A stretch of 64,000 nt of DNA, taken from the IMG/VR virus record IMGVR_UViG_3300027631_000011; one strand, 5' to 3'. The position numbers and the translations under genes were made by a program. This DNA comes from an uncultured virus (IMG/VR IMGVR_UViG_3300027631_000011) (Duplodnaviria > Heunggongvirae > Uroviricota > Caudoviricetes). Shown here piece by piece: positions 11,533-54,800 of this stretch. The notes under the pieces were generated by a model, which saw nothing but the letters and a program-made list of their open reading frames with translations, was not told where the DNA came from and did no database searches. Positions within the stretch are counted from its first letter, which is position 1, and each line of letters opens with the position of its first letter.

Positions 11533-11976
11533 CCTTCCACAACTGAAAGAATCTACAATCTCTCCATCTTCATTTACAACCCAACCACTATTTGAGAATA
11601 CATATTTGTAATATCCACCTGCGGCTGTTTCAGAACCCTCTTCATCAGCATAAAGTTGTAAATCTACATCAACTTCTTCTGTTTCATCATAGTAAACTGT
11701 TACACTAGATTCTGATTCACATTTACTTCCTTCATCTTCGGAATAGTAGAAAACAATACTTGTATATGATGTACCAGAAGTGGAATGATTGTATGAGTAC
11801 CATTCACTCATTTGATGAGGTGTTGATGAATTTGGTTTTGAAGTAGAGTTCGAATTAATAGAAACATGAGCTCCGGTATTTAAACTTGTTAGAGATGTAT
11901 TAGATGAAGTAGATGTTCTACCCAACTCCGTATTAATTTGACTTACTGATATTGTACCTGATGATGCTAATGCCAT
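11530..11976 (-). CDS. Tail fibre tip / adhesin-associated small protein
   Basis: MALASSGTISVSQINTELG...PHQMSEWYSY N-terminus typical of ORFs coupled to S74-domain fibre genes; TAATG overlap at 11976. Confidence 0.6.
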   Translation of the reverse strand: MALASSGTISVSQINTELGRTSTSSNTSLTSLNTGAHVSINSNSTSKPNSSTPHQMSEWYSYNHSTSGTSYTSIVFYYSEDEGSKCESESSVTVYYDETEEVDVDLQLYADEEGSETAAGGYYKYVFSNSGWVVNEDGEIVDSFSCGR

Positions 11977-14579
11977 TATTTACCTCTTTTTAATTCTTCA
12001 ATTTCTGATTTTAATTCTTTTATTGATTCAATCAATAATGGAACTAATTTTTCGTATTGTACCGTTAGATAATTTTCACCTGATATAGAACCATCTTCAC
12101 CATCGTTATCAAATGGTGCTCTTTTAACTGCTTCTGGTAATACACTTTCAACATCTTGTGCAAACACACCTACCATTGATTCTTCTTTATCAAATCCCGC
12201 AATTTTGTTTGCCGTTTCGTTCCAATTATAAGTGAAACCAGATAGTTTATCTAATTTATCTAAAGGAGTTTCAATTACTTTAATATTTTCTTTTAATCTT
12301 TTATCAGATGAGTATGCAACAATATCATTTGATGCATCAATTCTACCATTAGTAGTAGATGCGTTTACGTTCACACCCAATGCTCCACTATTAACTTTCA
12401 TACCATTCGAATTGATAGTTAATCGTTGAGTACCACCTGTTGTGGCAGCAATTGTATCTGTAGTGGAACAATAGAATCCTGTATTATTATCACCAACAAA
12501 ACTAAACGCTGGAGCTGATGATGAACCATCACCAGTTCTAACTCTACCACCTGTAGAACCATCCACCCCTGCCACTAAAGTTACTCCATCAAATGTTAAA
12601 TCGGATTGAGATGAAATATTTGTACTAGTCGACCATGTTGCGATTCTGTTCGATGAACCAGTTCCAGTTACAGTACCACTATTAGTTGTATATCCTGCAC
12701 CATTCGTTAATTGATTGTTATTGGTTACGTTGGTTGCTGATGTAGCGATACCATCTAATTTAGATTTTAGAGTAGTAGTGAAATTCTTTTGTGTTAATCC
12801 CCCATCACCTACTGAATATGTTGTGTTATTATCGGTTGATGTAATTGTAATTGCACCAGTTTCACCATCTTGTGTAAGAGTTACGTTAGTTCCACCTATG
12901 AAATCAACTTTTCCACCACTTGAAACTCCTAAAGCTTCACCACCATCAATTCCAACTCCAAATTCAAAGTTATTTGCAGATGCCGCAATACCATCTAATT
13001 TATTTTTTAGAGTTGTTGTGAAGTTCTTTTGTGTTAAACCACCATCTCCTACAGAGTAAGTGGTGTTGTTATCAGTAGATGAGATTGTTACTTTTTGAGT
13101 AGATGAATCAAATGCTACTGATGTTGCTCCACTACCAGCGAATCTAATTTCTTCATTTTCCGTTACTGTAAATTGGTCTGTTCCAGCAGAGTTAGCGATT
13201 TTAAATCCATCACCCATATCAACGGTATTTGTAAATGATGTTATGTACCCTGCACCATTTGTTAATTGGTTGTTATTAGTAACATTAGTTGCTGATGTAG
13301 CGATTCCATCTAACTTAGTTTTTAATGTTGATGTGAAGTTCTTTTGAGTTAAACCACCATCACCAACTGAATATGTTGTGTTATTATCGGTTGATGAAAT
13401 TGTTACTTTTTGAGTTTCTGCATCAAATGCTACAGAAGTAGCACCACTACCAGCGAATCTAACCTCTTCGTTTTCTGTTACTGTAAATTGGTCTTCACCA
13501 TCTGAATTGGCGATTATGAATCCATCACCCATATCAACAGTATTTGTATCAGTATATGAAGTGATATACCCAGCACCATTCGTTAGTTGGTTGTTATTAG
13601 TTGGGATTGTAGTTGAGTTATAAGCGTTACTTCCAAATATCTCAGAAAATCTTTTTCTTCTTTGAGCTCCATTATCTAAAAGAACTATTTCATCCACAGT
13701 TGCTGAAACACCAGCTGTCATATCAGTAAGTTCTGATAAATCTACGTTAAATGTAGTACCACTTAAATCTAAAAGTGAACCTGGTGAATAAGTTGTGTTT
13801 GTAAACGAAGTAATGTATCCTGCTCCGTTAGTTATTTGGTTATTATTCGTTACGTTAGTTGCAGATGCCGCAATTCCATCTAATTTATTTTTTAGAGTAG
13901 TAGTGAAATTCTTTTGTGTTAATCCCCCATCACCAACTGAATATGTTGTGTTATTATCGGTTGATGAAATTGTTACTTTTTGAGTTTCTGCATCAAATGC
14001 TACTGATGTTGCTCCACTACCAGCGAATCTAACCTCTTCATTTTCTGTTATTGTAAATTGGTCTTCACCATCTGAATTGGCGATTATGAATCCATCACCC
14101 ATATCGATAGTATTGGTATCAGTATATGATGTTATGTACCCTGCACCATTTGTTAATTGGTTGTTATTAGTAACATTAGTTGCTGATGCCGCAATTCCAT
14201 CTAATTTATTTTTTAAAGTAGTGGTAAAGTTCTTTTGTGTTAAACCACCATCACCTACAGAGTAAGTGGTGTTGTTATCTGTCCAAGGAACGTTAACAAA
14301 CATTTTCTCTGAGGATAATTCTACAGGATAGTTTTTACCTGATTCCGTAAATCCAATTTTAACACCACCTCTTGTACCTGATGCTGCTAACGGTAATGAA
14401 TAATTATTATATGTGTTTGAGTTAAATGCGTTTGAACCTAATTCTCTAGTTCCCACTACCCCACTACTATTAATCATTAGTGAAGTACCCTCAGAAGATT
14501 GTCCTGAAGTTCCTGTTAGTTTTAGTGTTGTTAGTTCTGCAGATGAACCACTAACTATTACTTTTTTCCAATTTGGCAT
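11976..14579 (-). CDS. Tail fibre protein with C-terminal intramolecular chaperone (peptidase S74-type) domain
   Basis: Thr/Gly/Asn-rich repeats; C-terminal SSDKRLKENI...GVFAQDVESVLPEAV...YEKLVPLLIESIKEL. Confidence 0.85.
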   Translation of the reverse strand: MPNWKKVIVSGSSAELTTLKLTGTSGQSSEGTSLMINSSGVVGTRELGSNAFNSNTYNNYSLPLAASGTRGGVKIGFTESGKNYPVELSSEKMFVNVPWTDNNTTYSVGDGGLTQKNFTTTLKNKLDGIAASATNVTNNNQLTNGAGYITSYTDTNTIDMGDGFIIANSDGEDQFTITENEEVRFAGSGATSVAFDAETQKVTISSTDNNTTYSVGDGGLTQKNFTTTLKNKLDGIAASATNVTNNNQITNGAGYITSFTNTTYSPGSLLDLSGTTFNVDLSELTDMTAGVSATVDEIVLLDNGAQRRKRFSEIFGSNAYNSTTIPTNNNQLTNGAGYITSYTDTNTVDMGDGFIIANSDGEDQFTVTENEEVRFAGSGATSVAFDAETQKVTISSTDNNTTYSVGDGGLTQKNFTSTLKTKLDGIATSATNVTNNNQLTNGAGYITSFTNTVDMGDGFKIANSAGTDQFTVTENEEIRFAGSGATSVAFDSSTQKVTISSTDNNTTYSVGDGGLTQKNFTTTLKNKLDGIAASANNFEFGVGIDGGEALGVSSGGKVDFIGGTNVTLTQDGETGAITITSTDNNTTYSVGDGGLTQKNFTTTLKSKLDGIATSATNVTNNNQLTNGAGYTTNSGTVTGTGSSNRIATWSTSTNISSQSDLTFDGVTLVAGVDGSTGGRVRTGDGSSSAPAFSFVGDNNTGFYCSTTDTIAATTGGTQRLTINSNGMKVNSGALGVNVNASTTNGRIDASNDIVAYSSDKRLKENIKVIETPLDKLDKLSGFTYNWNETANKIAGFDKEESMVGVFAQDVESVLPEAVKRAPFDNDGEDGSISGENYLTVQYEKLVPLLIESIKELKSEIEELKRGK
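12690..14285 (-). repeat. Internal fibre repeats: 5x TTYSVGDGGLTQKNFTxTLKxKLDGIA and 3x DMGDGF...QKVTISSTD
   Basis: Visible in the translation and as near-identical DNA blocks. Confidence 0.9.
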
Positions 14580-14594
14580 AATTTCTTTTCCTTT

Positions 14595-14660
14595 TAGTTA
14601 CGGTTGGTTACTTATATTTTATAAGCCCACTTCCCCAATGTGGGGCCAATATCCAAAGAT
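14595..14660 (-). ncRNA. Candidate structured cis-regulatory 5' leader RNA (family unassigned)
   Basis: GC-rich island TTGG-CCCCACATTGGGG-AAGTGGG-CTTATAAAATATAAG-TAA-CCAA between an ATATTTAT motif and the fibre ATG; folds by eye into a three-way junction. Confidence 0.45.
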
Positions 14661-14696
14661 ATGTATTAATAAATATGTAATTATTTTTTATTAAAC

Positions 14697-14727
14697 AAAA
14701 AACCCCCACATTTCTGTGAGGGTTTTT
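14697..14727 (-). terminator. Intrinsic terminator
   Basis: Minus strand AAACCCTCACA-GAAA-TGTGGGGGTTT followed by a T run; near-copy of the 4852 terminator. Confidence 0.85.
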
Positions 14728-14739
14728 AAAGTTTATTGA

Positions 14740-14931
14740 TTATGGTTTAAGAAGTTGTTGAAGTTTGACGGCCGTTTCATAAACTATCTGAACATCCTTT
14801 CCTTTAAAGTCAGAGTTGGCGATAAGATTTAAGAGGAACTCTACCTCTATCTTCGTTAATGATAATTCAATCTGTTTATCGTTACTTACCGTATTCTTTA
14901 TACTACTTCTTATTTTTTTAAATTCTGCCAT
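14740..14931 (-). CDS. Small hypothetical protein between two paralogous fibre genes (possible fibre chaperone)
   Basis: The ORF track starts at 14958; MAEFKK at 14931 is an equally plausible start. Helical EVEFLLNLIANSDFKGKDVQIVYETAVKLQ. Confidence 0.6.
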   Translation of the reverse strand: MAEFKKIRSSIKNTVSNDKQIELSLTKIEVEFLLNLIANSDFKGKDVQIVYETAVKLQQLLKP

Positions 14932-14968
14932 AATCTTTTTTAAAACTTTTTTAAACATTAATAATATA

Positions 14969-16702
14969 CTATGCGTAAATGTAAATTACATCATTTGTAG
15001 AATCTACAAATACATTACCAAGTTGTTGTTGACCTGTATTAACACCAGTTAAACCTTCATCAGAGTTATGTACTGTTACCGCAAAAGAATCAGATGTTAT
15101 TGATGTTTGTCCTTCAGTTGCTCCTGAGTAATCAAATGCCCATCTACCAGCTGAATTATCCCAACCAAAAGCTGCACCAGCACCTTCAACAACTAAACCA
15201 CCATCGGCAGCAGAACCACCATCGTTTAAGTTAATGAATTGGTCTGTTACATTTAAGTTTGCTGTATCAACAGTAGTAGTTGTACCACTTACAGTTAAGT
15301 TACCACTTACAGTTACACCACCAGTAAAGGTAGCAGTATCTGATGATTGATTACCAATTGTAAAGTTACCACCTAAATCAGAGTCTAATAACCCAATAAT
15401 CTCAGTAGCTGTTTGGTCTGCAGTTGCAGAAGATTCAATACCATTTAATTTACTATGGTCAGCATTTGTAAAGTTATTTTGAGTTAATCCACCATCACCA
15501 ACTGATAATCCATGTGCTGATGTAATTGTAACTGCACCACCTACTGCTTGTGAAAGAGATACATTAGTTCCACCTATCAAACTAACCGTTCCACCACTTG
15601 AAACTCCTATAGCTTCACCACCATCAATATCTACGCCGATTGAGAAGTTATTTGCTGAAGCAGCGATACCATCTAATTTAGATTTTAGAGTTGTAGTAAA
15701 GTTTTTCTGAGTTAAACCACCATCTCCAACAGATGGGTTAACTTCTGCACCTGTCGCAATACCATTTAATTTAGTATGGTCAGCATCTGTAAATACATTT
15801 GAATCAGTTGCCGCTTCTACTGCCGCTCTAATTTCTGCATCACTTTGGTCTGCAGTTGCAGAAGATTCAATACCATTTAATTTACTATGGTCGGCGTTTG
15901 TAAAGTTATTCTGAGATAAACCACCATCACCAACAGAATATTCTGTATTTGCGGATGCGATTGTAATTGCACCACCTACTGCTTGTGTAAGAGTTACGTT
16001 AGTTCCACCTATGAAATCTTGTGTTCCACCGCTTGAAACTCCTATAGCTTCACCACCATCAATTCCATTTCCAAATGAGAAGTTATTTGCTGAAGCAGCG
16101 ATGCCATCTAATTTAGTTTTTAGAGTTGTTGTGAAATTCTTTTGTGTTAATCCACCATCTCCAACAGATGGGTTAACCTCTGCACCTGCCGCAATACCAT
16201 CTAATTTAGTTTTATCACCATTAGCGAAAGCACCTTCTGATGGTTTAACTTGTAGTGTTGAGATTGTTACAGCCTTAATACCAGCTAAATCAGTTACTTC
16301 TGTATCCATTAATGCACCTGCTGAAGTTACATTTGTTGTATCTGTTACATCTGCACTTGCCTCTACACCATCTAATTTATTTTTTAGAGCTGTTGTGAAA
16401 TCATTAGCGGTTGTTTGTGATACAGATACCGTTCCGTCAGATACCGATAAACCAGTACCTACAATTACACCACCTAGTGTTGAATCTGTTGCATTACCTA
16501 AACTAAAGTTGTTTGCACTTGTTGCAATTCCATCTAATTTATTCTTTAAAGCGGTAGTGAAGTTATTATCTGAAACCCCACTAATACCCGTTATTCCAGA
16601 ACCATCACCCGCAAACGCATTTGCTGTGACTGTTCCGTCTACTGAAATTGCACTGAATTCAGGTGATGAACCAGATACAATTACTTTTTTCCATTCTGCC
16701 AT
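14969..16702 (-). CDS. Tail fibre-like structural protein
   Basis: N-terminus MAEWKKVIVSGSS is paralogous to MPNWKKVIVSGSS (14579); contains KLDGI and SVGDGGL repeats and GNLTVSGTTTTVDTANLNVTDQFINLN. Confidence 0.8.
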   Translation of the reverse strand: MAEWKKVIVSGSSPEFSAISVDGTVTANAFAGDGSGITGISGVSDNNFTTALKNKLDGIATSANNFSLGNATDSTLGGVIVGTGLSVSDGTVSVSQTTANDFTTALKNKLDGVEASADVTDTTNVTSAGALMDTEVTDLAGIKAVTISTLQVKPSEGAFANGDKTKLDGIAAGAEVNPSVGDGGLTQKNFTTTLKTKLDGIAASANNFSFGNGIDGGEAIGVSSGGTQDFIGGTNVTLTQAVGGAITIASANTEYSVGDGGLSQNNFTNADHSKLNGIESSATADQSDAEIRAAVEAATDSNVFTDADHTKLNGIATGAEVNPSVGDGGLTQKNFTTTLKSKLDGIAASANNFSIGVDIDGGEAIGVSSGGTVSLIGGTNVSLSQAVGGAVTITSAHGLSVGDGGLTQNNFTNADHSKLNGIESSATADQTATEIIGLLDSDLGGNFTIGNQSSDTATFTGGVTVSGNLTVSGTTTTVDTANLNVTDQFINLNDGGSAADGGLVVEGAGAAFGWDNSAGRWAFDYSGATEGQTSITSDSFAVTVHNSDEGLTGVNTGQQQLGNVFVDSTNDVIYIYA

Positions 16703-26778: not shown

Positions 26779-27036
26779 CTAATAATTTTCGAATTGATTT
26801 CGTCGCCATTCGGCTCTAATCGCATCTGCTTTTTGTTTTCTTTTAATGACTGATGGTTTGAGGTATTCTTTACGAGCTTTCACTTCATCCATCTTACCAC
26901 TATCTTTAATTTTTCTTTTAAATGTTTTGAGAGCTAACTCAATGTTACCATTCACAACTTTAACTGCTAATGAGTTACCTGGTATTTCCATATCTTCTTT
27001 TCTAATTCGTTTGTAATTCTTTGGTTTTTCTTGCAT
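26779..27036 (-). CDS. rpsU: Phage-encoded ribosomal protein bS21
   Basis: VKVVNGNIELALKTFKRKIKDSGKMDEVKARKEYLKPSVIKRK matches the bS21 pattern, with an N-terminal extension of about 20 aa. Confidence 0.9.
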   Translation of the reverse strand: MQEKPKNYKRIRKEDMEIPGNSLAVKVVNGNIELALKTFKRKIKDSGKMDEVKARKEYLKPSVIKRKQKADAIRAEWRRNQFENY

Positions 27037-40516: not shown

Positions 40517-42823
40517 TTAAAAGTACATTAATCCTAATATCTGATTCAATGATGCGAATGTACCAGTTAATTTATATGTTCCACCTTTATATGTGAATAC
40601 GATTCCTTCGTTTGGTACAATCTTATCTTTACCACCAACTGCGGCTAATCTTTCTAATTCCATTCTTAGTTTTTCAATCTTTTTAACATCACCACTTTTC
40701 TGAACTGCCTTTACAGTTTTATCTAATTCAGATTTCATAGTTCTAAGTGCTTTATCAGGATTAACTGTAAGTGCTGAACTCATAAATGAAAGTACATCTG
40801 CACCAACTCCTAAGAATATATCTTCAAACTTTCTAAGATTTTGTTTAGATATCTTTGCTTTATCCTGTTTATCTGTTTTGTTTGCCCAAGCTAATACTTT
40901 AGAATCTGAAATATTCTTTTTGTTTAATCTAAATGAGTTATCAAAGAATGCCCATCGTTTAACTAATCCCATTTTGGTTTTGTTATCTAATGTAGCTGGT
41001 GAATTCTTATCAACATAGTCTTCCCACCATGCTTGATGGTAATCAGCTACACCATTAGAATCTTTTAGTTTAAATTCTTTTTGGATTTTGTTTAATGCTG
41101 AGTGATATTTACTTTGTTTTTTTGAGAGTTCTTCTGATTGTGGTAACTTAACTACAGGTGGTCCTTGTATTGTGTAATTATCTTGTACATCTTGATTTAT
41201 TTGTTTAATCATACCAGCTAATATTCTTGCTGCTGATGTATCAGCTCCAATTGCCTTCCCATCCATATTATATTGCATTGTTCCATGAAAGACCAATAGT
41301 GGTTGTCCATAAGGAATTACATTTACTGATGTTGGGAATATAACTTCTATATTCATAAAGGATGAACCTTGATTAAATACTTTATCTCTTTGTGCTTTTG
41401 ATAATGATTTGATTGCTTTAGATAAATCTTTCATAGCGAAGTTGTATGCATCAGTTAATCCACCTCTACCTTGAAACTTAGAAGCCACTCCACTAATATC
41501 CAATGCGTTTTCACCACTATTCTTTAGGTGTCCACCATTACGAGCGGCGATTAAACCTTTATCATCTCTATAACTAATAGCAAGTGCTTGTCCATCTGTT
41601 TTTTCTCTAGCAAATTCTAACTTACCATTTAATGCGTTTGATATGATTGTTTTTAAATCACCAAAAGTTAAATTCATTTGTGTATCGAATGGATGAGCCA
41701 TATGTCCATATGCCCCACCTTCAGTAATCAATCCTTCTTGAATCTTAGTTGTTTTATCATCACCATCTTTTAATCTTTCTTCTGGTGATGGTGTTTTTAC
41801 AGCTGCATCTTTCGTATCCTCAATAGATTCTTCTGCATCTAAGAAATCAATTAACTTATATCCTACTGTTGTTGCTACGTTTGTGATATGTTTTGCCCAA
41901 GTCTTGTATGCCTGTGAACCTTTTAAATCAATATATCTTTGTGATTGTGCATCTAACCCATCGATACCTGCTGGAAAAAATGATACTGGGTATTTATCTC
42001 CTAAACTTCTTTCATTATCCGCATATATAGAATCACTATCATCATCTAATATATAATCAACTACTTGCCATCCCAATCTTTTAGCAGTTTCTTCACCAAC
42101 CGCTTTATATGATTTAGAATTACCATAAGAAAAACCAGGCCCATCATCTACACCAACTATAGTTGAGGTGGATTCGGATAATAGTTTATTAAAATTAAAT
42201 GTAGATAGAAAACTTTCCATTTGATTAGTTATTTTACCTAACTTAGTAGTTATAAACTTATATATTTTTGGATTAAATTTACCATCGTATGCTTTTTTGA
42301 AACCTTTCTTTTTAGAATCATCATTACCTAACGATAATAATTTTCTAACCTCAGTCCCACTAATACCACCACTTTGAGCTGGTGCTACATAAACATATCC
42401 TTTATCTTCGTATCCTTTTTCAATTCTATCAGGATGATATGGTTCAAAATATTTACCTTTTAATCTGTATCTATCTTTTTCACCAACAACAGTTACAAAT
42501 GCTGTAGTATCTTTATTAAATTTACCTATAATTTCTTTAGGAGCGTATGGGTTTTTTATTTGAACGATTTTAGATGATGATATTCCAAACATCTTCATCA
42601 TAATCATTTTCTTTTCGTTAAACTTAAATGGTGATTTAAGATTATCTGTTTTATTGGATGTACCAATGTAAACATTATCTCTACCAAACTGTTTTACCAA
42701 ATGTTCGTAAGTGGCATTATGTCCTTTATGAAAGGGTTGGAATCTACCAGCGTAAACTACTACCTTTTTTTCTATTCCTTCAGCTAAGATTCCCTTAACC
42801 CACTCTTTAATTAGTTTTCCCAT
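40517..42823 (-). CDS. Multidomain protein: HxGH cytidylyltransferase-like domain plus a C-terminal ligase-like (KxDG) domain
   Basis: YAGRFQPFHKGH and ISGTEVR in the N-terminal part; EKTDG, NIEV, EGIVF and YKLTG in the C-terminal part. Confidence 0.75.
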   Translation of the reverse strand: MGKLIKEWVKGILAEGIEKKVVVYAGRFQPFHKGHNATYEHLVKQFGRDNVYIGTSNKTDNLKSPFKFNEKKMIMMKMFGISSSKIVQIKNPYAPKEIIGKFNKDTTAFVTVVGEKDRYRLKGKYFEPYHPDRIEKGYEDKGYVYVAPAQSGGISGTEVRKLLSLGNDDSKKKGFKKAYDGKFNPKIYKFITTKLGKITNQMESFLSTFNFNKLLSESTSTIVGVDDGPGFSYGNSKSYKAVGEETAKRLGWQVVDYILDDDSDSIYADNERSLGDKYPVSFFPAGIDGLDAQSQRYIDLKGSQAYKTWAKHITNVATTVGYKLIDFLDAEESIEDTKDAAVKTPSPEERLKDGDDKTTKIQEGLITEGGAYGHMAHPFDTQMNLTFGDLKTIISNALNGKLEFAREKTDGQALAISYRDDKGLIAARNGGHLKNSGENALDISGVASKFQGRGGLTDAYNFAMKDLSKAIKSLSKAQRDKVFNQGSSFMNIEVIFPTSVNVIPYGQPLLVFHGTMQYNMDGKAIGADTSAARILAGMIKQINQDVQDNYTIQGPPVVKLPQSEELSKKQSKYHSALNKIQKEFKLKDSNGVADYHQAWWEDYVDKNSPATLDNKTKMGLVKRWAFFDNSFRLNKKNISDSKVLAWANKTDKQDKAKISKQNLRKFEDIFLGVGADVLSFMSSALTVNPDKALRTMKSELDKTVKAVQKSGDVKKIEKLRMELERLAAVGGKDKIVPNEGIVFTYKGGTYKLTGTFASLNQILGLMYF

Positions 42824-42842: not shown

Positions 42843-45800
42843 TTAATTATTAGAACCTTTTTCTAATTTATTAATTCTTTCAGTTAATTTTTCAATCGTA
42901 TCTGATTGTTCTTTTATAGCTTCAATTAGTAGTGGAACTATCTTTTCGTACTTAACGGCTTTGTATCCGTTTTCTCTTTCAGTAACCACCTCTGGTAGTA
43001 CTTTTTCTATCTCTTGTGCGATAACCCCTACATCATGTCCTTCGTTTCCATGTATAGTTTTCTTTTCTTCTTCTGTAAGTTCTTTCCAATCAAATTCAAC
43101 ACCTCTGATTTGTAAAACTTTAGATAAAGAACTATCAATGGTTTTAACATTTTCTTTTAATCTCTCATCTGAAGTAGAGTATGCAACAATATCGTTACCA
43201 GCATCAATTCTACCATCGGTTGAAGAAGCTGCAACATTTACACCAATCGCATCATCAATTCTAAGTCCGTTAGCATTTAATTGCATTCTCGTAACACCAC
43301 CGACTGAAAACCTCAAATCAGCTGCTCCACCCAACCACATACCTGTATCCGTATCTCCAGCAAATGCATATGTTGGTGAAGAATAAGTTCCATCTCCAAA
43401 CCTAAGTCTACCACCTGTAGGGCCAGATGAAGTTACTAAATTAGTACCATCAAAAGTTAGGTTTGTTTCCACATCAATGTTATCAGTTCCACCATAAGTT
43501 ATTAACCCATTAGCAGTACTACCATCCATTGAAATATCACTACTTCCACCACCACCACCGCCAGATGGTATTGCTTGTGTTGATAATTCACCATTAGCAT
43601 TTGCAATAACCATTCTGTTTCCAGTTCCACTTAGAATTGCCGCCTGTATAGAACTTTTAACATATAACCTACCATCGGTTGTTAATGACATCGCCCCAGT
43701 TGATTTAGTTTGGTCTTTATAACCCCACCACCAACCTCTATCTGCATCATTGTTCATAACGAAGGTTGTAGCGTAATCGTTTAGGTAACCTAATGTAACT
43801 GCGGAAACCATACCGATTCCGTATGTAGTACCACTCCAAACTGAGAACTTAACATCTGCTTGAGTAGCTGCAGTTATAACTTGATTTCCGCTCGCTGTTA
43901 AATCACCACTAAGTGATAGATTTCCATTAATATCGGCACCTGTACTGGTGATACTCATTCTTCGAGTGTCATCAAATACAAATTGTAAGTTACCCGCAGA
44001 GTTTGTTGTTAAATCATCTGGTGATTCAACTATTTTTGTATTACCACCATTCCAACTTATACCTTCAGTTGGACCAGGGTCGTTTATAACAAGATTATTA
44101 ATACCTGTAATGTTCTGATTACCCATCGCAATAGCACCAGTCATAGTACCACCAGATAGTGGTAGACCAACATTAGCACCATCTGCTACATTTAGTGCAG
44201 TTCTTGCTTGAGCAGGTGTCCATGAACGACCATAATTATCACTTCCATTTGTGCCTGTAAAGAAGCTCAATGTACCAGTTGCACCAGAGTTTGCAAATGT
44301 TCCAGTCATATTTAAGAAGTTACCAAATATGTAACCACTACTATTTCTTTGAACTACCGTACTATTACCGGCCGCGGCTGAAACTGTGTAAGGGAAACTA
44401 TAGTTGTTTGCATTTGTGGCAATACCATCCAACTTAGTTTTTAATGTTGAGGTAAAATTCTTTTGAGTTAACCCACCATCTCCAACAGAATACGTTGTGT
44501 CATTATCAGTTGCAGATAAAACACCATTTGAAATACTTAAATTAGTTCCTACCTTTATACCACCTAATGTACTAGCTGTCGCCGTTGGTAAAGAGTATGA
44601 ACTTCCACCACCACCACCACTACCTACAGATGCAGATGTAAATGTTAGTTTACCTGTATGTGTGTTTATTCTTACAAATTTATTTGATTGAGAAACATCA
44701 CCTACAAGTGTTTCAACAGGATATTGATTATCTTCTTTTAAATCTAAATATATCGATTCCCACTTCTCCGTTGGAGCACCTAATGCAAAACTAGAAGTTG
44801 TTGCAGATGAAGTAAATTCAGGAACAAAGTTTCCATAATGACCAGTAGTTGCAGGATTATCATGCCAAGTCATATAAGTATCTTTAAAGTGAACTGTTTG
44901 AGTATCAATAGAAGTAGCTCTAACAGGTTCTACCATTCTCATTTCAGTAAGTGCGAATCCTAAAGTAAATGATTCATTTGCGGTATTTTTTCCACCGAAT
45001 CTAGTACCCTCAGTTATTCTTTGGCTCATCAAACGTGAACCACTATATCTCATATTTATTTTTACTTTCAGACCAGATGATTGTGGATTGCCCAAATAAG
45101 TTCCTTCATCAAATGAACCTGTAGATTTGTTGAATTCTATATTTTGTTTATAGAATGTTGCAATATCTGTCATTGGTACATCAAACACTGCCCAATTTTT
45201 ATGAGTTGCTTTTGTATCTTTATAAGTTTTTTCCCAAACTACGTTAGAACCAGATGTATCTAAAACTTGTACTTGGTATTCAGGATTGTATCCATTAAAT
45301 GAACCTGTAGATGGGTGAGCTGTTCCTCTAACCGCAAATTGTAAGTGTACATTCCTTCTATCTTCTTTTAAAACATCAAATAAGTTAATAGTATCCGTTG
45401 TCATTGATTGGAAACTATTTGATGATGATTGGAATAATAATGCAGAAGAAGTAGCTTCGTTAAATACTAACTGATTTCCAATTAGATTTGCAGATAAAGA
45501 TGCGGATGCATCGGCGGCCGTTCTTGCGGAAGTATTTGAAACAAATACATAATCATTATTTACACCACTAATATCTTTCCAACTCTTAAATTCTTCAGGA
45601 TACCCAACACCATCAGCAGTTATTGGTGTTAAAAATTGTGGAGTACTTTGTAAGTTAGAAGATAAAGTAAATCTAACGTGGTTACCTTGAATCCTAGAAC
45701 CTGTTTGACTCAATATAGTAGATGAACCACTCATTATAAATCCACTTTCAACTGTAGACCCGGTTAACCTCGTGTCATTAGAATCTTGTGAATAAGCTTC

Positions 45801-48800
45801 GACAAATGGTAAATTATATTTTACAGTAATACTATTTGGGTTTATTACACCTGTATTAACTACCTTACCAGCTAAGAATGTATCTTGCCCATAAACCTGT
45901 TCTGCCTGTATATTACCTTTTACATCTAATGATGTTGGTTTTAAATTAAATAATGAAGAACTAATTTCAAATGTAGTTTTATTACCTTTTATAATTCCAT
46001 TATTGTTATCATCTTTAAATTCAAACTCATTTGCGAATATAGACATATCAGAACCAGATATTTTACCACCTGTAAAGTTAATTTTAGAACCCGTTACTTG
46101 TCCATCTGGTTTTTGAATATAATTTGATGATGATATCTCACCACTACTACTAATAGATAATACAGTAGAATTTCTTAGTGAACCAGATGTAGTTCCCATT
46201 CTAATAGTACCTTCACCAAATTTACTTTCCTCTGCGAATGATAGTTTTACAAAGAACTCTTCAGATGAACCATCTATACCACCATCTGATTGTAATACAC
46301 TTAGTAACTCACTAGTCGCATTTGTTTGTACTACATTATCGGAAATTCTTTCTGTTATATCGAAGGTATCATCACCAGTTTCCCCTAAAAGGTTATTTAT
46401 ACTTTGCTCAATTCCTTCAATAACTCTACTTCGTAAACCTTCAGCATTAATCTCACCTCTAACCGCTATATTTTCTGGATAGATTGCATTTTTCAATATC
46501 ATCTTAGTACTTCTAGAGACAGAACCAGTTACATATGTATGTGATACTTCAAATGGAATTCCAAATCTTCTTGAATTTGAGGTATCATTATACGTTCCAC
46601 TTGCATCAATTCTATACTTATCCCAAGTAAATAAAGTATCGTTTTGTTCTTCACCTTCACCTGTACTCTGACCGTTAAAACCTGTAGTAGGTGAGTTTGG
46701 TAAGAGTTTGTTTAAGTTTGATATTGCAAGATTTACCAATGGGTTTAAAATATACCCTTTATCTAACACCAACATATGCTTACCACTACCTGGATTACGC
46801 ATAGTGTAACTTATGTTACTACCACCCTCACTTTCAGCAGAAGTAATGAAATTTGGAAAAGAATACTCTGGTGCACCATAATAAGGTAAAAATCCATCTT
46901 GTCCTGATATGAATCCAGTTGACTGTTTATCAAATTGGTCAATATCATAGTATGGCATAAAATGCATTGATGCAGAACCAACCATCTCAAAACCACCGTT
47001 ACCAGCTTCTTCAAATTGAGATGCTAAATTGGTATTTGTATAATTTCCAGCAATAGTTACAGCAGCACTTTGTAATGCTGCATAATCTCTATCGGTTATT
47101 CCATTATTGGCCAAGTTTGGATTATATAAAAATGGTGATTCTTTTATTAATTCTTCAAGAGTTATTCCATCAGAAGATGAACGACCCCAATAGTTAGCAA
47201 CACTATTACCGGCATAAATTGATGATGCCGTTGTTTGGTTAATAATTTGTTGAATATATTTACCATCTATTGTAAGTTTTGTTACTAAATCTACAGTTGC
47301 AACTGGTAATCCTTTTTCTATTGCTTGTGATTCATAGAAGTTAGCTTTTGATTCATTTGTAACAAATGAAACAAACTGAGAGGAATGGTAAGAACTTGCA
47401 AGTGAAGAAGTTGTTGCCAGCTGACTCATCTTCGAACCACCACCGTCTATCAAAAGAGCTTGAGCGTAAAACCCCTCTGATGGTAATTCCTCACCAATTG
47501 GTGAAGCATTTGTAGATACAAATTGTAAACTTAAAGCACCTTCATGTTCATCTCTATCTGAATAATTTCCAACAACAGAAGCTGTTTGAGCAAATACAGT
47601 AAATTTGTTAAATGTATTGGTGATAGATTCTGATAAGAATGTTACTCTAGCGTTAATGAAATCATCTGTATCACCTGATTGTAATGTAGTAGTATCAAAA
47701 TATTTAAGATACCAATTTTCATTTTGTCCTAAACGATTAGTAGTAGGTGGGATATAAGAAAAACCTCTATGGTCTAAAAGTGTTGTACTACCACCAGAAG
47801 TTCCACCTCTTGGCCAACCACTAATATTTTGTCCAGATTGAGCGGCCGCCGAACCTGTAAACATTCCTAATCCATTTAGTTGTGATTGGTCATAAACTAA
47901 ATTACTTGAACTTCTAGCGGATGAAGATATTGCTAAATAATAACCATATCCTTCATTCGTAGAACCATTTTCACCAACATTTGTTATAGTTGAAATATCC
48001 CAAAACTCATCACCAATATAAAGTTGCAACGGTGTACCGTTATTTGTATCAGCTCTAGGAGCGGATAGAGCGGCGTTTGGTAAAGTTTCTGAAACATATA
48101 CTCTAAAGTCATAAATCGGCTCTCTATCTAAAACATCATCGGTAACAACTACATTACTACCTGTTATTGTAAAACTACCAATTTTACCTATTTCTGATTT
48201 AATTTCTGCAGATGAACTTAATATTAATTTAGTTGTTACTTTATCATCTAAAGTTAAGTTTTTAGTTTCATTTAATTTATTAAATGCAGTATAATTACTT
48301 GTTGAAGCTCCACCATCATTAGTTCCGTCTGTATATTGTGCATTAAACCCTACACCTTGTACTACATGAACTCTTGTTGTTCCAGGACCACCACTAAATA
48401 CACTATAGTATCCAAGTCTGTAATTATGTCCCAATTTCATAAATCCAGACTTAGGGTCAAATGATTCAACAACTACAAATTTAGTTTCATTTTGATAATT
48501 TGTACCGTATTGGAAAAGACCTTGTGGTGCACTACCAAAATTAGAAGATGATAAAATAGAACCTGATTTTATAAGTTCTCCCAAATACTCAGTAGGACAA
48601 TTTGTTTCTAAATCATCTATATAGAAGTTTTGACTTGCGAATTTAATTGAATATTCAAACGGTGGAACATTACCGTAATCGCCAAATGATTGTTTTAATT
48701 GAAAACTAGCACTTAATAAAGGTAATGCGGTTGGATTTTGATATAATGAACTATTTTCTAATTGGAATCCACCGATGTTACCACCACTAAATAATACAGA

Positions 48801-51800
48801 TGAACCTGTGATTTGACCTGATTGTTTTAGTTTAAGAACTTCACCTACTGCAATTTCATCTGAACTAACTGGCATTCCTGCAACAGTACCACCAGTCAAT
48901 AATAAAGTAGATGCTGTAACTTGTCCTGATGCCTTTAGTATTAAATTATTATTTGATGAATTAATTTGTGTATCACTTAATGTAAACCCACCAATAGTTC
49001 CATCCTCTGCAGTAACCTTTTTTACAATAATATCACCATCAGGTTTAATATGGAATTTAGAAGATGATATCTCTATATTACCATTTGAACCACTAATGAA
49101 TTGTGTAGTTTTAGTACCTACGAAAAATTTATCTACATCTATTGTTGCTTTAGAACCACTAATCAATAATGATTTATCGGTATTGTTCCATGCGAAATAA
49201 CCATCTGTTGGATTACTCGCTCCACTAGCATTCCCACCTAAATAAAAATTACCACTACTATCTAAGAATGATGTAAAATCTGTTAGTGCTCCATTTGTTC
49301 CACTTATTCCATTGTGGAATCCAAATACATTTGAAGTCATTAATAAACCTGCTGAACCAATTGGTCCAATTCCAGTTAAACTCGCACCTAAGAATGAGAA
49401 ATCTTGATTGTTTGCTCCAGGATTACCTTGTGGTCCTGTTGCTCCAACTTTTGATTTTGTTAATGATTGTGTTTTTGTGAAAGTTGTAAAATTTGAACCG
49501 TTTAATGTTTTACCACTAATCGTATATGTAATTACATATTGGTCTGTACCATCGGCAGCTCCACTATGATTTCCAATTGTACAGAATGTTCCACTATCTG
49601 TTATACTTCCTTCTGTGATGTTTGCAGTGTTACCTACTGATACTCCGAATTCTCCAGTACCTGGTGTACCTGTAACGAATGTTAATGCGGTTGCTCCTTC
49701 AAAACATCTTATTGTAGTTCCACTATTTGCGTATGATGATACAGCACCTGCCGCACTTGCTGGAAGTACGTGAGCTTCATTATCTAATATCGCAGTTATG
49801 TTACCACTACCTTCATCTAATTCATTTAATGTTACACTATCGGTTATACTACCATCAGCTCCTGCAGCTGTGTAAGTTACAACCATTCCGTTTGAGAAGT
49901 TTCCACTTGTTACAGTAGTTGAACCACCAGAGGTTGATACCGATGTTGATGATAACGTACCACCCGTATTACTAAATGCACCATTTGCGGTTAAGTTTTG
50001 TCCGTTCGCTGTTATTGTAATTGATGATGGAGAAAGAGTACCATCCTGTGCTTTTACAAATATGTTAGATGATGCTCCTACAGTAACAGTTTTTGCATTT
50101 GAACCAGCGGCTCCTGTATCTCCAGTATCACCTTGTTTTGATTTACCAATTGAATATGTTTTGGAAATTTGTACTTGTCCAACATTACCACTTGCAGAAG
50201 TTGCAGTAAGTATTACAGAACCACTATCTGGTGTTAATGCCGTTATTGTTAGTACTCTCGTACTTAGTGTTGATGAAAGACCTGTAGAGTTTGTTCTAGT
50301 TACTGTATAATCTGAAGATACATCAGTAGCTCCTTGAAAGATTATCATTTCAGTTCCACTACCAACAAACGATGATACTGTACCATCACTTGCAGCTGGA
50401 ACTATATCTCCATCGGATGTTAGGAATGCGGTAATGGCAGATGTTCCATCACTTCCTGCCGTACCATCTAATCCAGATTTTACACCAAATATGGATACAC
50501 TATCTTCTGCTATAACAGTTCCACTTGTCCCACCTTCTCTTGTCTTTACTACATACGATACGTTTCCAGTAGATGTAGGTTTTTCAGCAGTTGTGTTAAT
50601 CGTAAATGTGGCCGTTGTTGAATTTTGTTGTGATGAACCATCTTTTAAGAATTCGTAATATACCGTACCACTATGATTTTGGTCTGTAGCGGTTAATGTA
50701 ATATTTTGAGATGATGGAGTTTCAACATCAGAACCATTATATGTAATTACGGATTTATTGGCAAGTAATGATACTACCTTTGCATTAGTTCCGGCAGCTC
50801 CTGTTGCTCCTGTTGCCCCAACACCACCTTGTCTGGATTTTACAACACTCATTGTTTTACTAAGTGATGTAGCTCCTTTAGTTGCAGTAACTACTACTGA
50901 CCCGCTATCATGTCCCATAGAGGTTATAGTAACTGTATTAGAACTAATAGAAGAACTTACTGAAGTGGTTGATGTTCTGGTGAATGTGTATTCGGAAGTT
51001 TTATTAGTAACTCCCTCAAACACTTCCATATCCGTTGAACCACCCACAAAGGATGCAATACTACCACTAAAGTCAGCTGCAAATGTATGAGATTCGTTAG
51101 TAAGGAATGCTGTTACTGCATCTGTTCCAGCAGAACCATCAGAACCAGTATCACCACCTACAATTTTAAATATCTTAGCTGAATCACTTAGTGAATCTTT
51201 AGATACCGAAATACTAAGTGGTAAATCAGATTTACTAAATGATGAGAATGGTAATGTGAATGTTCTTGTACCACTTCCATCAGTTACAGAACCACCTAAT
51301 GTTGGAGTTGTAAATGCAGAACCACCAGCTTTTGTAATTGTGATATCTGATGTTGCAATCGTACCACTTAAATTTTGTTGATTAACTACAAAGTTTACAG
51401 ATGATGGAGTTGCTGTTGTATCAACAGAGTTATCAAATGCGAATGTTTGAGAATCAGCTATTAATGAAACTGATTTAGCATCAGCTCCAGCCAAACCTGC
51501 AGTTCCTTGTTTGGATTTAACTAAACTCATTGTTTTAGTTAATGATGTACTCCCACTTGTTGCCGTAATATCAACAGAACCACTATCGTGAGTCATCGCA
51601 GTAATAGTAATAGTGTTTGTTGAGATTGTTGAACTTACACCAGTCCCATTTGTTCGTGTAAATGTATAATTATCAGTTGAGTTAGTTACACCTTCGAATA
51701 CTTCCATATCCGTAGTTGCCCCAACAAACGATACAATTGTTCCATTATTTTGAGCGGCAAATGTATGAGCTTCATTCGTAAGGAATGTGGTTACTGCATC

Positions 51801-54800
51801 CGAACCTGCGGCACCAGCGGCCCCATCTGAACCTGTATCACCACCAACTACTTTAAATATCTTCGTTGAATCAGATAAATTATTTGCGTTATTTGATACC
51901 GATACCGTTAATGGTAAATCGGATTTTGTTAAAGATGAGAATGGAACTGTAAATGTTTGTTGTCCTGTTCCACCACTAACTGTACCACTTAAAGATGGAG
52001 TAGTAAGTGTACTACTACCAGCTTTTGTAATTGTAATATCACCTGTATCTATTGTATGAGCTAAATTTTGTTGAGCTACTGTAAATACAATTGATGATGG
52101 AGTTGCGGTTGTATCAACCGAATTATCAAATCCGAATACTTGAGAATCGGATGTGATTGTTAATATTTTTGCAGATGTTCCGTTTACACCATTAGAACCA
52201 TCTTGACCATCCGTTCCATCATCACCCTGTCTTGCAACAGAGATTGACATTGTTTTTGCCAAACTTACAGATGCGGAAGTTGCAGTTAATACAATAGAAC
52301 CTGTATGTGGAAATGAACCACTTGTAATTGTTAATTCATTACCACTCAATGTAGTTGTAAAGTGAGATGGTGTATTTTGAGTAACGGTATATAATGAAGT
52401 TTTGTTTGATGTTCCTTCAAATACTTCTATCTCAGTACTTGCTCCTGTAAGTGATATAATTGTATTAGATGAACTTAATGGTAAAGTATGAGAATCATTT
52501 GTTAGGAATGCGGTAACGGCCGAAACACCATCAGCACCAGGAGTACCATCTGTTCCAGATGCCCCACCCTCAACCTTAAATATTTTTACAGCATCACTTA
52601 ATCCATCTTTAGTTGCTGTAATTGTAACAGGTAAATTAGATTTAGTAGAGTTTAATCCACCACTATTCAATGCACCAGCAAATGAGATACTACCACTAAC
52701 AACACCAGTACCACTACTAACATCATTGTTATCAAAATCAAAGTTAGTAACATTACCACCAGCGGTTGAGATTGTAATATCACCACTACCTATTGTACCA
52801 TTAAGGTTCTGTTGATTAAATGTAAATATAATTTCTGATGGGTCTGAAGTATTATCACTTGCACTTAGGAATGAGAACACTTGTGATTCTAACGAACCTG
52901 CTAATAACTTAGCCGATGTACCATCATCACCATCTGCACCTTGTCGTGCTTTGGTTAAACTCATCGTTTTAGAAAGTGATACACTCGCAGAAGTAGCGGT
53001 GATTGTTAATGAACCACTATCGTGTCCTAAAGCACTTACAGTAACGGTATTACCACTATCTGTTGCAACAACTCCCAATCCTCTTGAGGATGAAATTGTA
53101 TATAGAGATGTTTTGTTTGTTACTCCTTCGAAAACTTCCATTTCAGTACTACCACCCACAAAGGATGCGATAGCACCAGTCGAATCAGCAGGGAAGGTAT
53201 GAGATTCATTGGTTAAGAAAGCAGTTACTGCATCAGAACCATCAGTTCCATCCGTTCCGGATGTCCCACCCTCAACCTTAAATATTTTTAAACTATCCTC
53301 TAATCCATCTTTAGTGACTTCAATTGTTAAAGGAAGTTTTGTTTTTACACCACCAACAGTTGAACCCATTCCACTAAATGTAATTGAACCACTTACCTGC
53401 CCAGTTCCATCTGTTACACTTGCAACAAATGTTGGGTCTGTTAATGTGTTTCCACCTGAATCTTTAATTGTTATATCACTACCACCTATAGTACCACTTA
53501 GGTTTTGTTGGTTAATAATAAGTAAGATATCATTATCTTCAGGAGTTGATGAAGATGCTGATGGGAATGCAAATACTTGAGAATCCGAAGTAATAGTTAA
53601 TAACTTAGCATCAGCTCCAGCCAAACCAGCAGTTCCTTGTTTAGATTTAACTAAACTCATTGTTTTACTTAATGATGTACTTGCAGATACAGCTGTAATA
53701 GTTACGGAACCTGAATCATGTGTCATTCCACTAACAGTAACCGTCTTACCAGTTATGGATGAAGTAACTCCTAATCCATCTGATTTTGAAAAAGTATATA
53801 CAGATGTTTTATTCGTAACCCCTTCAAATACTTCCATATCTGTTTGAGCACCTGAGAATGATACAATTGTACCATCGTTTTGTGATGCAAACGTATGAGC
53901 TTCATTTGTTAAGAATGTTGTAACCGCATCAGAACCATCTGTTCCATCTGTTCCAGATGTTCCACCTTCTACTTTAAATACTTTTATAGAATCTGTTAAA
54001 GAATCATTAGTAACAGATATAGTTACAGGTAATTTAGTTTTATCTGAATTTAAACCACCAGCAGATGTACCACTACTAAATGAAATACTACCACTTGCGA
54101 TACCCGTTCCATCGGTAACCGAATTGTTATCAAATCCAAATCCAGTAATATTAGTACCATCACCTGCGGTTATTGTAACATCCGAACTTCCAATTGAATC
54201 ATTTAAATTTTGTTGGTTAAATGAGAATATGATTGATGTTGGTTCTGCCGTAGAATCACTCGCACTTAGGAATGAGAATACTTGAGAATCTGTACTCGCT
54301 ACTAATGATTTAGCACTTACACCACTAACACCTTGTGGGCCAGCAGTTCCACCCAAATTTAATGTCCATGCTGTTTGAGTAGAAGTACCAACTATAGAAT
54401 CAACATTTATACTCATTGAACCGTTGGATGAGTTGTATGAGTTTACTGTACCTGTAATAGAGTTACTACCATCATATGCAACCACTGCAGTTAAACCAGC
54501 CGTCCAAGCTAATCCAGTATCTGCCGTAAATGTTATTGTATCATCTATATTTAATGTTGATAAATTTATTGTAGTTGAAATAGATGTATCGGCAAACTTA
54601 TCACCAGATGCCCCATCTTCACCATCAGCACCTTGTTTAGCTTTTGTTAATGAAAATAACTTTTGTAAGTTAACACTTGCCGAAGTGGCGGTTACAACAA
54701 CAGAACCACTATCATGTCCCATAGAGGTTACTGTAACCGTATTTGAACTAACAGATGAACTAACAGATGTTGTAGATGCCGCACTTATAGAATAATCAGA

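What the first reader, a model, noticed from the sequence alone, without database searches (positions are those of the whole stretch)
14580..14676. Riboswitch-like structured leader in front of the MPNWKKVIVSGS fibre gene
Seen (minus strand): a terminator, then ATATTTAT, then about 85 nt containing TTGG CCCCACATTGGGG AAGTGGG CTTATAAAATATAAG TAA CCAA, then AAGGA and the ATG. By eye, P1 is TTGG/CCAA, P2 is CCCC/GGGG and P3 is CTTAT(A)/(T)ATAAG, with purine-rich junctions AAGTGGG and TAA. A mutually exclusive CCCAC/GTGGG pairing also exists. It has no T tail and is far more GC-rich than the other leaders. I cannot match it to a riboswitch or ribozyme class I know. Inference: a cis-regulatory RNA (protein- or ligand-binding) controlling fibre stoichiometry, possibly undescribed.
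Basis: partly seen in the sequence, partly recalled or inferred. Interest (0 to 1): 0.7.

Follow-up and report, generated by a model that had tools for sequence, protein, structure and literature searches.

The report
Three-armed RNA gating phage fibre gene
The folded stretch is real: it is one copy of a widespread three-armed RNA, absent from the Rfam catalogue, that sits in front of one class of tail-fibre genes in aquatic phages related to a cultured Flavobacterium phage, and it most likely limits how often the fibre message is translated.

Summary
It belongs to a family of at least 282 distinct copies. No Rfam family matched. Covariation gives a three-way junction: an AU-rich P1, one bulged base, GG/CC, P2, the strand AAGU, P3 with a two-base bulge, and AA. 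On an alignment not fitted to structure, 94.8% of cells pair and 12 of 18 pairs change on both sides. TTGG/CCAA fails. The RNA occurs once per genome, including cultured Flavobacterium phage immuto. It precedes 290 of 304 Met-Pro-x-Trp fibre genes and 0 of 53 paralogues. P1 ends 6-21 nt before the AUG. Two subtypes carry loops complementary to AUGCC. In this window's clade an extra 5' hairpin makes open and closed folds nearly equal in energy. Best reading: a translational OFF operator closed by an unknown protein (about 0.5). It resembles the glutamine-I riboswitch scaffold but lacks its ligand bases. It may be the unnamed candidate DNAVirus_1847 of Fremin 2023 (unverifiable). Earlier notes of this scan describe what seems the same family on other DNA.

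The parts
14969..16702 (-). Upstream paralogous fibre gene (starts MAEWKK, 577 aa); its own leader lacks the RNA
   Evidence: ORF; PHROG tail-fibre hits; single model hit in window
14740..14958 (-). 72-aa helical-hairpin protein (E-x-G-x-K family) between the two fibre genes; candidate chaperone of the upstream fibre, weaker candidate regulator
   Evidence: ORF; family profile found upstream in 108 of 120 representatives; model; no fold or family match
14698..14727 (-). Intrinsic-terminator-like hairpin closing the upstream unit
14669..14676 (-). ATATTTAT late-promoter-like motif (start site not mapped)
   Evidence: enrichment; upstream of many genes; spacing in homologues
14649..14662 (-). 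P0, a clade-specific 5' hairpin (ATATC/GATAT) that takes the 5' strand of P1 and so competes with junction closure
   Evidence: kept with varied loops in 13 of 13 close copies; open and closed folds within 1.2 kcal/mol at 37 C in 13 of 13; no family-wide enrichment
14593..14657 (-). Three-way-junction RNA, closed form: P1 (14651-14649 with 14601-14599, extended by 14657-14653 with 14597-14593), bulged U14648, GG 14647-14646 with CC 14603-14602
   Evidence: covariation; model hit 62.2 bits (window is in the training set); fold
14633..14645 (-). P2 hairpin; two basal C-G pairs nearly fixed, apex variable, often a GNRA loop in homologues
14629..14632 (-). Junction strand AAGU (U14629 can pair with A14605)
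   Evidence: present in 107 of 108 gene-anchored leaders that hold the RNA; U-A pair in 47 of 49 rows
14604..14628 (-). P3 arm: GG/CC, two-base bulge 14609-14608, G-U, C-G, variable hairpin; then the AA junction strand 14605-14604
14589..14593 (-). Shine-Dalgarno-like AAGGA, abutting or overlapping the end of the extended P1
   Evidence: closed folds
11976..14579 (-). Downstream fibre gene (starts MPNWKK, 867 aa, C-terminal Peptidase_S74 chaperone)

Best explanation
A cis-acting translational OFF operator at the 5' end of a late fibre mRNA. Shown: the fold, the fixed junction bases, the strict link to one fibre gene, the position of P1 next to the start. Inferred: P2 and P3 fold on their own, while the AU-rich P1 is marginal; a trans factor, most likely a protein, binds the conserved junction and closes P1 over the ribosome landing region, lowering fibre translation. 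Lineages add their own reinforcement: P1 pairs into the Shine-Dalgarno word in some, a GGC loop can pair with AUGCC in two subtypes, and in this window's clade an extra hairpin P0 holds the RNA open until the junction is stabilised. The factor is not identified; candidates are a phage late protein (the fibre itself or an assembly factor in excess) or a host or phage ribosomal protein.
For: Structure: 94.8% of 867 cells paired, 12 of 18 pairs with two-sided change, slid controls 30-52%; RNAalifold gives the same fold unprompted; on a tree from flanking proteins, both sides of P1 pair 2 change together (16 and 17 changes, 17 jointly). RNA and sense strand: 54 of 83 four-base P2 loops are GNRA and 0 on the other strand; first P1 pair is U-G in 58 of 120. 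Cis link: 108 of 114 gene-anchored leaders hold it and the other 6 look like the upstream paralogue; 290 of 304 Pro-2 starts against 0 of 53 others; one copy per genome in 3 of 3 carriers. Position: junction ends 12-27 nt before the AUG; 6-21 free nt after P1. Stems vary while junction bases stay fixed, as at a binding site. P1 is weak: predicted pair probability median 0.16 against 0.75 for P2 and 0.89 for P3b. P1 overlaps an SD-like word in 19 of the 43 representatives that have one. Loops: in 52 long-P2 copies the base 5' of GG can pair with the third base of the Pro codon in 51; 34 long-P3 copies carry GGCAUA-like loops and longer spacers. Precedent: T4 gp32, RegA and hairpin operators (PMC3014915, passages).
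Against: No binding, probing or expression data; RNA runs were contigs only and cannot show starts, strand or level. In 7 of 282 copies no AUGCC lies within 45 nt, and in several the fibre start is 57-128 nt away behind an insert, which a pure landing-site block does not explain. The 5' strand UUGGC can pair with GCCAA at the start, but the bulged base and the Pro third base do not covary (A bulge with CCT 0 of 30; 25 and 14 changes, 34 jointly). Loop-to-start pairing has no clear compensatory change: C in the long-P3 loop faces A in 22 of 34; Fisher p 0.03-0.06 without correction for kinship; 188 of 274 copies, this window's among them, have no such loop. Anti-P1 hairpins are not enriched family-wide (65 of 120 against 70.7 in shuffles). 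Family-wide the closed fold is already favoured by a median 2.4 kcal/mol at 37 C, so a ligand may not be needed. The adjacent small protein is kept in Mel-JY01, which lacks the RNA and the gene. Flavobacterium ribosomes ignore SD words (PMC7797042 abstract), which weakens the SD argument unless phage bS21 changes that.
Confidence: 0.5

Rival explanations
1. A small-molecule riboswitch: the junction is an aptamer on a glutamine-I-like scaffold with changed specificity, and ligand binding closes P1 (or, in this clade, flips P0 to P1).
For: Size, weak P1 and fixed junction are aptamer-like. By eye, the junction words line up base for base with the published glutamine-I aptamer (GUUGGCCC; GAAGU; AA opposite; PMC5393176 passages). 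Two near-equal folds in 13 of 13 close copies.
Against: RF01739 scores nothing in 5 phage records, 3 of them model-confirmed carriers, and nothing in 20 diverse copies at E 10. The glutamine contacts C1:G59 and G2:C58 are missing (C at position 1 in 4 of 120, C58 in 0 of 120) and the loop E A-G pair is Watson-Crick in 120 of 120. Tied to one structural gene, not to metabolic genes; not found in 151 Flavobacteriaceae-level genomes apart from one unpaired chance hit.
Confidence: 0.15
2. A ligand-free structural dampener or timer: the junction folds by itself through non-canonical contacts and sets a fixed low, or temperature- or kinetics-dependent, translation rate, like T4 hairpins over initiation regions.
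For: Closed fold favoured by a median 2.4 kcal/mol at 37 C and 4.4 at 15 C without any ligand. T4 gene e and I-TevI hairpins work this way (PMC3014915 passages). Inserted HNH genes sit directly behind it.
Against: A plain hairpin would do the same job; it does not explain fixed unpaired bases (AAGU 107 of 108) and a fixed junction geometry across lineages whose stems have turned over many times.
Confidence: 0.14
3. It acts on the transcript rather than the ribosome: a polymerase-modifying or antitermination signal, an RNase processing or protection site, or a new self-cleaving ribozyme cutting at the bulged base.
For: Lies at the predicted 5' end of a late transcript. Kept intact where the start codon is 57-128 nt away. 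A single variable bulged base (T 83, A 30, C 7 of 120) next to a fixed core.
Against: Spacing to the AUG is tight in 274 of 282 copies. 14 of 15 long-P2 representatives have no promoter motif nearby. One copy, one gene context; no match to any Rfam ribozyme.
Confidence: 0.12
4. A translational enhancer: the fold recruits ribosomes, perhaps those carrying the phage bS21, and raises fibre output.
For: The window encodes bS21; phage bS21 is proposed to favour late phage mRNAs (PMC9723584 part 1). Most copies (77 of 120) have no SD-like word.
Against: Other late genes, including capsid and sheath, have short unstructured leaders. P1 pairs into the SD word in 19 copies, and two subtypes have loops complementary to the start codon.
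Confidence: 0.06
5. A DNA-level site (recombination or exchange point for swapping fibre genes) whose symmetry only looks like RNA structure.
For: Downstream proteins share only their N-terminal stretch and range from 67 to over 1600 aa; mobile endonuclease genes insert at this start codon.
Against: GNRA loops on the sense strand only, many U-G pairs, three covarying helices, one copy per genome.
Confidence: 0.03

Closest known systems
Fremin, Bhatt and Kyrpides 2023 candidates DNAVirus_1847 and DNAVirus_1846 (PMC10690425)
   Same: From IMG/VR; DNAVirus_1847 is 85 nt, 366 sequences, all aquatic (333 marine, 32 freshwater), mostly Caudovirales, with Peptidase_S74 genes within 25 bp in 130 cases; DNAVirus_1846 is 45 nt, 465 sequences. 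In my sample 7 of 33 downstream proteins have S74.
   Different: Identity cannot be checked: the DNA-virus alignment and figure files were too large to read. The parts of the text I read (1-3 of 5) do not discuss them; only 1 and 2 covarying pairs were reported and no mechanism.
Glutamine-I riboswitch (glnA RNA, RF01739)
   Same: About 60 nt, three-way junction in 5' leaders (PMC6698751 passages); similar junction words by eye.
   Different: No model score; ligand bases absent; P1 shifted by a bulged base; loop E A-G pair replaced by a Watson-Crick pair; phage fibre gene, not nitrogen genes.
T4 translational operators (gene 32 pseudoknot, RegA sites, gene e and I-TevI hairpins)
   Same: Phage mRNA leader elements that block initiation, with or without a protein (PMC3014915 passages).
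   Different: Those are a pseudoknot, unstructured A+U tracts or single hairpins; this is a three-way junction before a virion fibre gene, and no cognate protein is known.
Flavobacterium phage vB_FspM_immuto_2-6A (Immutovirus), gp052 leader
   Same: Holds a full copy (74.1 bits) before its putative tail fibre-like gene; capsid 55% identical to the window's.
   Different: The record lists no RNA feature in that stretch; it has the GA/UC variant and lacks the window clade's P0 hairpin.

Membership tests
Any Rfam 15 family | Score at or above the gathering threshold, or at least a weak hit over the junction | tested here: not met
   0 hits in the window; 23 weak hits at E up to 10 in 14500-14800, all far below gathering and mostly on the terminator; 5 unrelated weak hits in 20 homologue loci
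Glutamine-I riboswitch (RF01739) | Three-way junction of about 60 nt in a 5' leader | tested here: met
   definition from PMC6698751 passages
Glutamine-I riboswitch (RF01739) | Scores on the family model | tested here: not met
   0 of 5 phage records at E 10, while the control rang over the cut-off in 1 of 14 genomes
Glutamine-I riboswitch (RF01739) | Ligand bases C1:G59 and G22 on G2:C58 | tested here: not met
   C1 equivalent is C in 4 of 120, C58 equivalent is C in 0 of 120; CGTT 1 of 120, AACG 1 of 120; mapping made by eye, contacts
Glutamine-I riboswitch (RF01739) | Loop E motif at the junction | tested here: not met
   AAGU and AA are kept, but the A-G pair position is G-C 98 or A-U 22 of 120; that loop E needs a sheared A-G there is recalled
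Glutamine-I riboswitch (RF01739) | Binds glutamine | not testable with these tools
   needs in-line probing
Protein-bound translational operator (T4 gene 32, RegA type) | Cis element in or next to the initiation region of one gene | tested here: met
Protein-bound translational operator (T4 gene 32, RegA type) | A cognate repressor protein encoded by phage or host | tested here: inconclusive
   adjacent small protein has no RNA-binding fold match and is kept in a genome without the RNA
Protein-bound translational operator (T4 gene 32, RegA type) | Binding lowers initiation | not testable with these tools
   needs toeprint or reporter
Known small self-cleaving ribozymes | Catalytic core of a catalogued class | tested here: not met
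   no Rfam ribozyme hit
Known small self-cleaving ribozymes | Self-cleavage | not testable with these tools
   needs an in vitro assay
Fremin 2023 DNAVirus_1847 | Sequence and structure match to that alignment | not testable with these tools
   files mmc1, mmc2, mmc3 too large; two zip files not searched
Fremin 2023 DNAVirus_1847 | Aquatic tailed phages, directly before Peptidase_S74 genes | tested here: inconclusive
   130 of 366 there against 7 of 33 here: compatible, not proof

The most novel reading that the evidence does not exclude
A phage-encoded riboswitch class: a glutamine-I-like junction with altered specificity that reads a host metabolite or ion and gates synthesis of a virion fibre, so that the make-up of progeny particles depends on host state, with several independently evolved expression platforms (SD in P1, loop-to-AUG pseudoknot from either arm, anti-P1 hairpin).
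Probability: 0.13. Interest if true: 0.9.

Novelty: new variant of a known kind. Interest (0 to 1): 0.62.

Why it matters
It is a large, strongly covarying RNA family absent from Rfam, tied almost one-to-one to a single virion fibre gene in a widespread group of T4-like aquatic phages, and present in a cultured phage with a cultured host (immuto on Flavobacterium LMO8), so it can be tested directly. The phage operators I could read about control replication, lysis, endonuclease and a few tail genes through pseudoknots, single hairpins or unstructured tracts; a conserved junction dedicated to a fibre would point to a feedback on virion assembly or host recognition. It would also show how mRNA structure controls initiation in Bacteroidota, whose ribosomes ignore Shine-Dalgarno words. 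If a metabolite binds, it would be a new riboswitch class in phages.

Tried and rejected
Strand swap of the 5' UUGGC onto the start codon: predicted in the window's minimum-energy fold when coding sequence is included, but no covariation. Family-wide anti-P1 hairpin: not above shuffles, though above a swap control (56.6 on average, maximum 70), so at best weak. Cellular copies: the genome contigs pattern was too loose; the model found 0 hits in 100 of its 120 loci, 0 in 5 Bacteroidota-labelled genomes and 1 in 151 genomes of one family, which lacks the pairs; only 32-150 first-look candidates were scored per genome, so this is 'not found', not 'absent'. Small upstream protein as regulator: no Pfam, PHROG, Atlas, PDB or BFVD name; kept without the RNA in Mel-JY01; a locus scan with its alignment could not be run. 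RNA evidence: 18 RNA runs hold part of the region, but the four laid were contigs and show no start, strand or level; a homologous copy appears as a loose end in one RNA library (X4), which is weak. Sigma-70 promoter scan: none. blastn of the leader against named phages found only the start-codon region of immuto, and of the immuto leader only immuto. NCBIfam did not recover the DNAVirus_1847 domain list in 19 proteins. Paper searches that returned no description of this RNA. Look-up of earlier findings by sequence returned nothing.

Full report
Observation. ATATTTAT is enriched (24 against 13.35 expected) and stands before many genes; I read it as the late promoter by analogy with the T4 TATAAATA box (PMC3014915), but no start site is mapped. 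Alone, the leader folds no better than shuffles and its GC content is only just the highest of 18 such leaders. Rfam gives nothing.

The phage. The window is the structural module of a T4-like myovirus (capsid, portal, terminase, sheath) that encodes bS21. The closest named capsids are Microcystis phage Mel-JY01 (60%) and Flavobacterium phage immuto (55%). A Bacteroidota host is an inference from immuto and from PMC9723584 (part 1 of 6), whose clades differ in having bS21 on the opposite strand.

The family. Pooling the loci gives 282 distinct copies by a structural pattern, one of them probably chance; 274 have ATGCC within 45 nt. The least biased test anchored only on the gene start: of 114 distinct leaders (124 matches; 1 too short and 9 duplicates dropped), 105 hold the RNA within 35 nt, 2 at 118 nt, 1 (L301) holds a GAGU variant further up by eye, and the other 6 follow a different upstream gene and look like the paralogue. 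Over all loci, 290 of 304 Met-Pro-x-Trp starts have it within 220 nt and 0 of 53 starts without Pro do (many loci were fetched by the RNA pattern, which inflates the first figure, not the second). In a gene-blind scan the model scored 40 hits in 100 of 121 loci, all at 43 bits or more with nothing between; of the 39 distinct ones, 37 start a Met-Pro fibre gene within 35 nt, one at 118 nt, one an HNH gene. Whole records hold one copy (immuto, G003, G004) or none (Mel-JY01, G002), and the latter two gave no match to the Met-Pro N-terminus. It was not found in the cellular genomes searched.

The fold. In 120 representatives (under 88% identity, chosen by a core pattern, so the fixed core in this set is by construction) the pairs are: P1 119, 118, 117, 107, 109 of 120 at five positions; a bulged base (T 83, A 30, C 7); GG/CC 116 and GA/TC 4; P2 basal pairs 120 and 120; GG/CC 98 and AG/CT 22 after AAGU; a variable two-base bulge; then G-U, C-G and a free hairpin. 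On a MAFFT alignment of 49 hand-picked short copies, not fitted to structure, 94.8% of cells pair, 12 of 18 pairs change on both sides, and slid partners give 30-52%; RNAalifold returns the same fold plus one U-A pair. That tree has 86 columns and many open forks, so counts are upper bounds; the GA/TC change is a single event. GNRA loops occur on the sense strand only (54 of 83 against 0), which points to RNA.

Clues to mechanism. The junction ends 12-27 nt before the AUG, leaving 6-21 free bases after P1, inside the 30S footprint (recalled, about -20 to +15). P1 is AU-rich and poorly populated in predictions (median 0.16; the energy model ignores non-canonical junction contacts). Of 43 representatives with an SD-like word, P1 overlaps it in 19. 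Two subtypes with long arms keep a GGC loop, one on P2 (52 copies), one on P3 (34 copies); both are complementary to AUGCC and the long-P3 type has longer spacers (21.9 against 15.9 nt). The support is consistency, not compensation (p 0.03-0.06, kinship uncorrected), and my loop classes required GG by definition. This window has no such loop. Instead its clade (13 distinct copies) has an extra 5' hairpin, P0, with a fixed stem and varied loop, that takes the 5' strand of P1; open and closed folds differ by at most 1.2 kcal/mol at 37 C and 2.3 at 15 C in 13 of 13. It is not a family trait, and the 13 copies are close kin.

Against a simple picture. Seven real copies have no AUGCC close by: inserts of 57-128 nt, short open frames, or a GIY-YIG-like gene (label recalled from the sequence, no call) follow the RNA. 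HNH genes inserted at the start codon keep the first codons. The small helical protein upstream, found in 108 of 120 representatives, is an obvious candidate ligand, but it has no named relative and Mel-JY01 keeps it after the upstream fibre while lacking both RNA and downstream fibre. RNA-library contigs cover parts of the region but cannot show transcription.

Comparison. By eye the junction words align with the glutamine-I aptamer printed in PMC5393176 (passages), but the family model scores nothing and the contact bases named in PMC6698751 (passages) are absent: a likeness of scaffold, not membership. In function it is closest to T4 operators (PMC3014915, passages). Fremin et al. 2023 (PMC10690425; parts 1-3 of 5, supplement list and tables) list DNAVirus_1847, aquatic and before S74 genes, which may be this motif; the alignment files could not be read, and they bear directly on novelty. 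PMC7797042 was seen as abstract and outline only. Searches that found no description of this RNA; subscription journals are not covered. Earlier notes of this scan describe what appears to be the same family on other genomes; they show no sequence, the look-up by sequence found nothing, and they are not independent evidence.

Verdict. A real, widespread, uncatalogued three-way-junction leader RNA; structure well supported, function inferred. Translational OFF operator with an unknown protein 0.5, riboswitch 0.15, ligand-free dampener 0.14, transcript-level role 0.12, enhancer 0.06, DNA site 0.03. Interest 0.62.

Noticed in passing
window 26779-27036 (-): Phage-encoded ribosomal protein bS21 (Pfam PF01165) on the same strand as the structural genes, unlike the clades of PMC9723584; its leader also holds a hairpin.
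   Followed up: partly
L004/L467, L051, L638, L607, L024/L105, directly behind the RNA: HNH genes (Pfam hit for L467) and a GIY-YIG-like gene (label recalled) inserted at the fibre start codon, several keeping the first codons Met-Pro-Asn; the fibre gene follows in L004 and L051.
   Followed up: partly
L030, L214/L486, L301, L307, L037/L642, L602, L672: Inserts of 57-128 nt between the RNA and the fibre start; L602 and L672 carry a short open frame overlapping the start, L037 uses a GTG start. Possibly decayed mobile genes or a second element.
   Followed up: partly
window 14740-14958 (-) and homologues: One or two paralogous 45-100 aa helical-hairpin proteins (E-x-G-x-K) between the two fibre genes in nearly all loci; no named family or fold.
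   Followed up: partly
window 42843-60386 (-): A 5847-aa open reading frame, not examined.
   Followed up: no
L456-L533 downstream genes: Proteins behind the RNA share only the N-terminal stretch and range from 67 to over 1600 aa, with S74, collagen, cement or tail-tip domains: a hypervariable slot with a fixed start.
   Followed up: partly
window 12876-14486, run X2: A contig joins 13073 to 14387 with 107 other letters, suggesting a strain with a shorter repeat region in the fibre gene; one contig at low depth.
   Followed up: no
window 40517-42823 (-): 768-aa protein with a cytidylyltransferase-like domain inside the structural module.
   Followed up: no
long-P2 subtype, e.g. L014, L136, L206: 14 of 15 representatives lack the promoter motif near the RNA and all 15 carry an SD-like word, unlike most of the family: possibly a lineage with another host or transcription layout.
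   Followed up: partly
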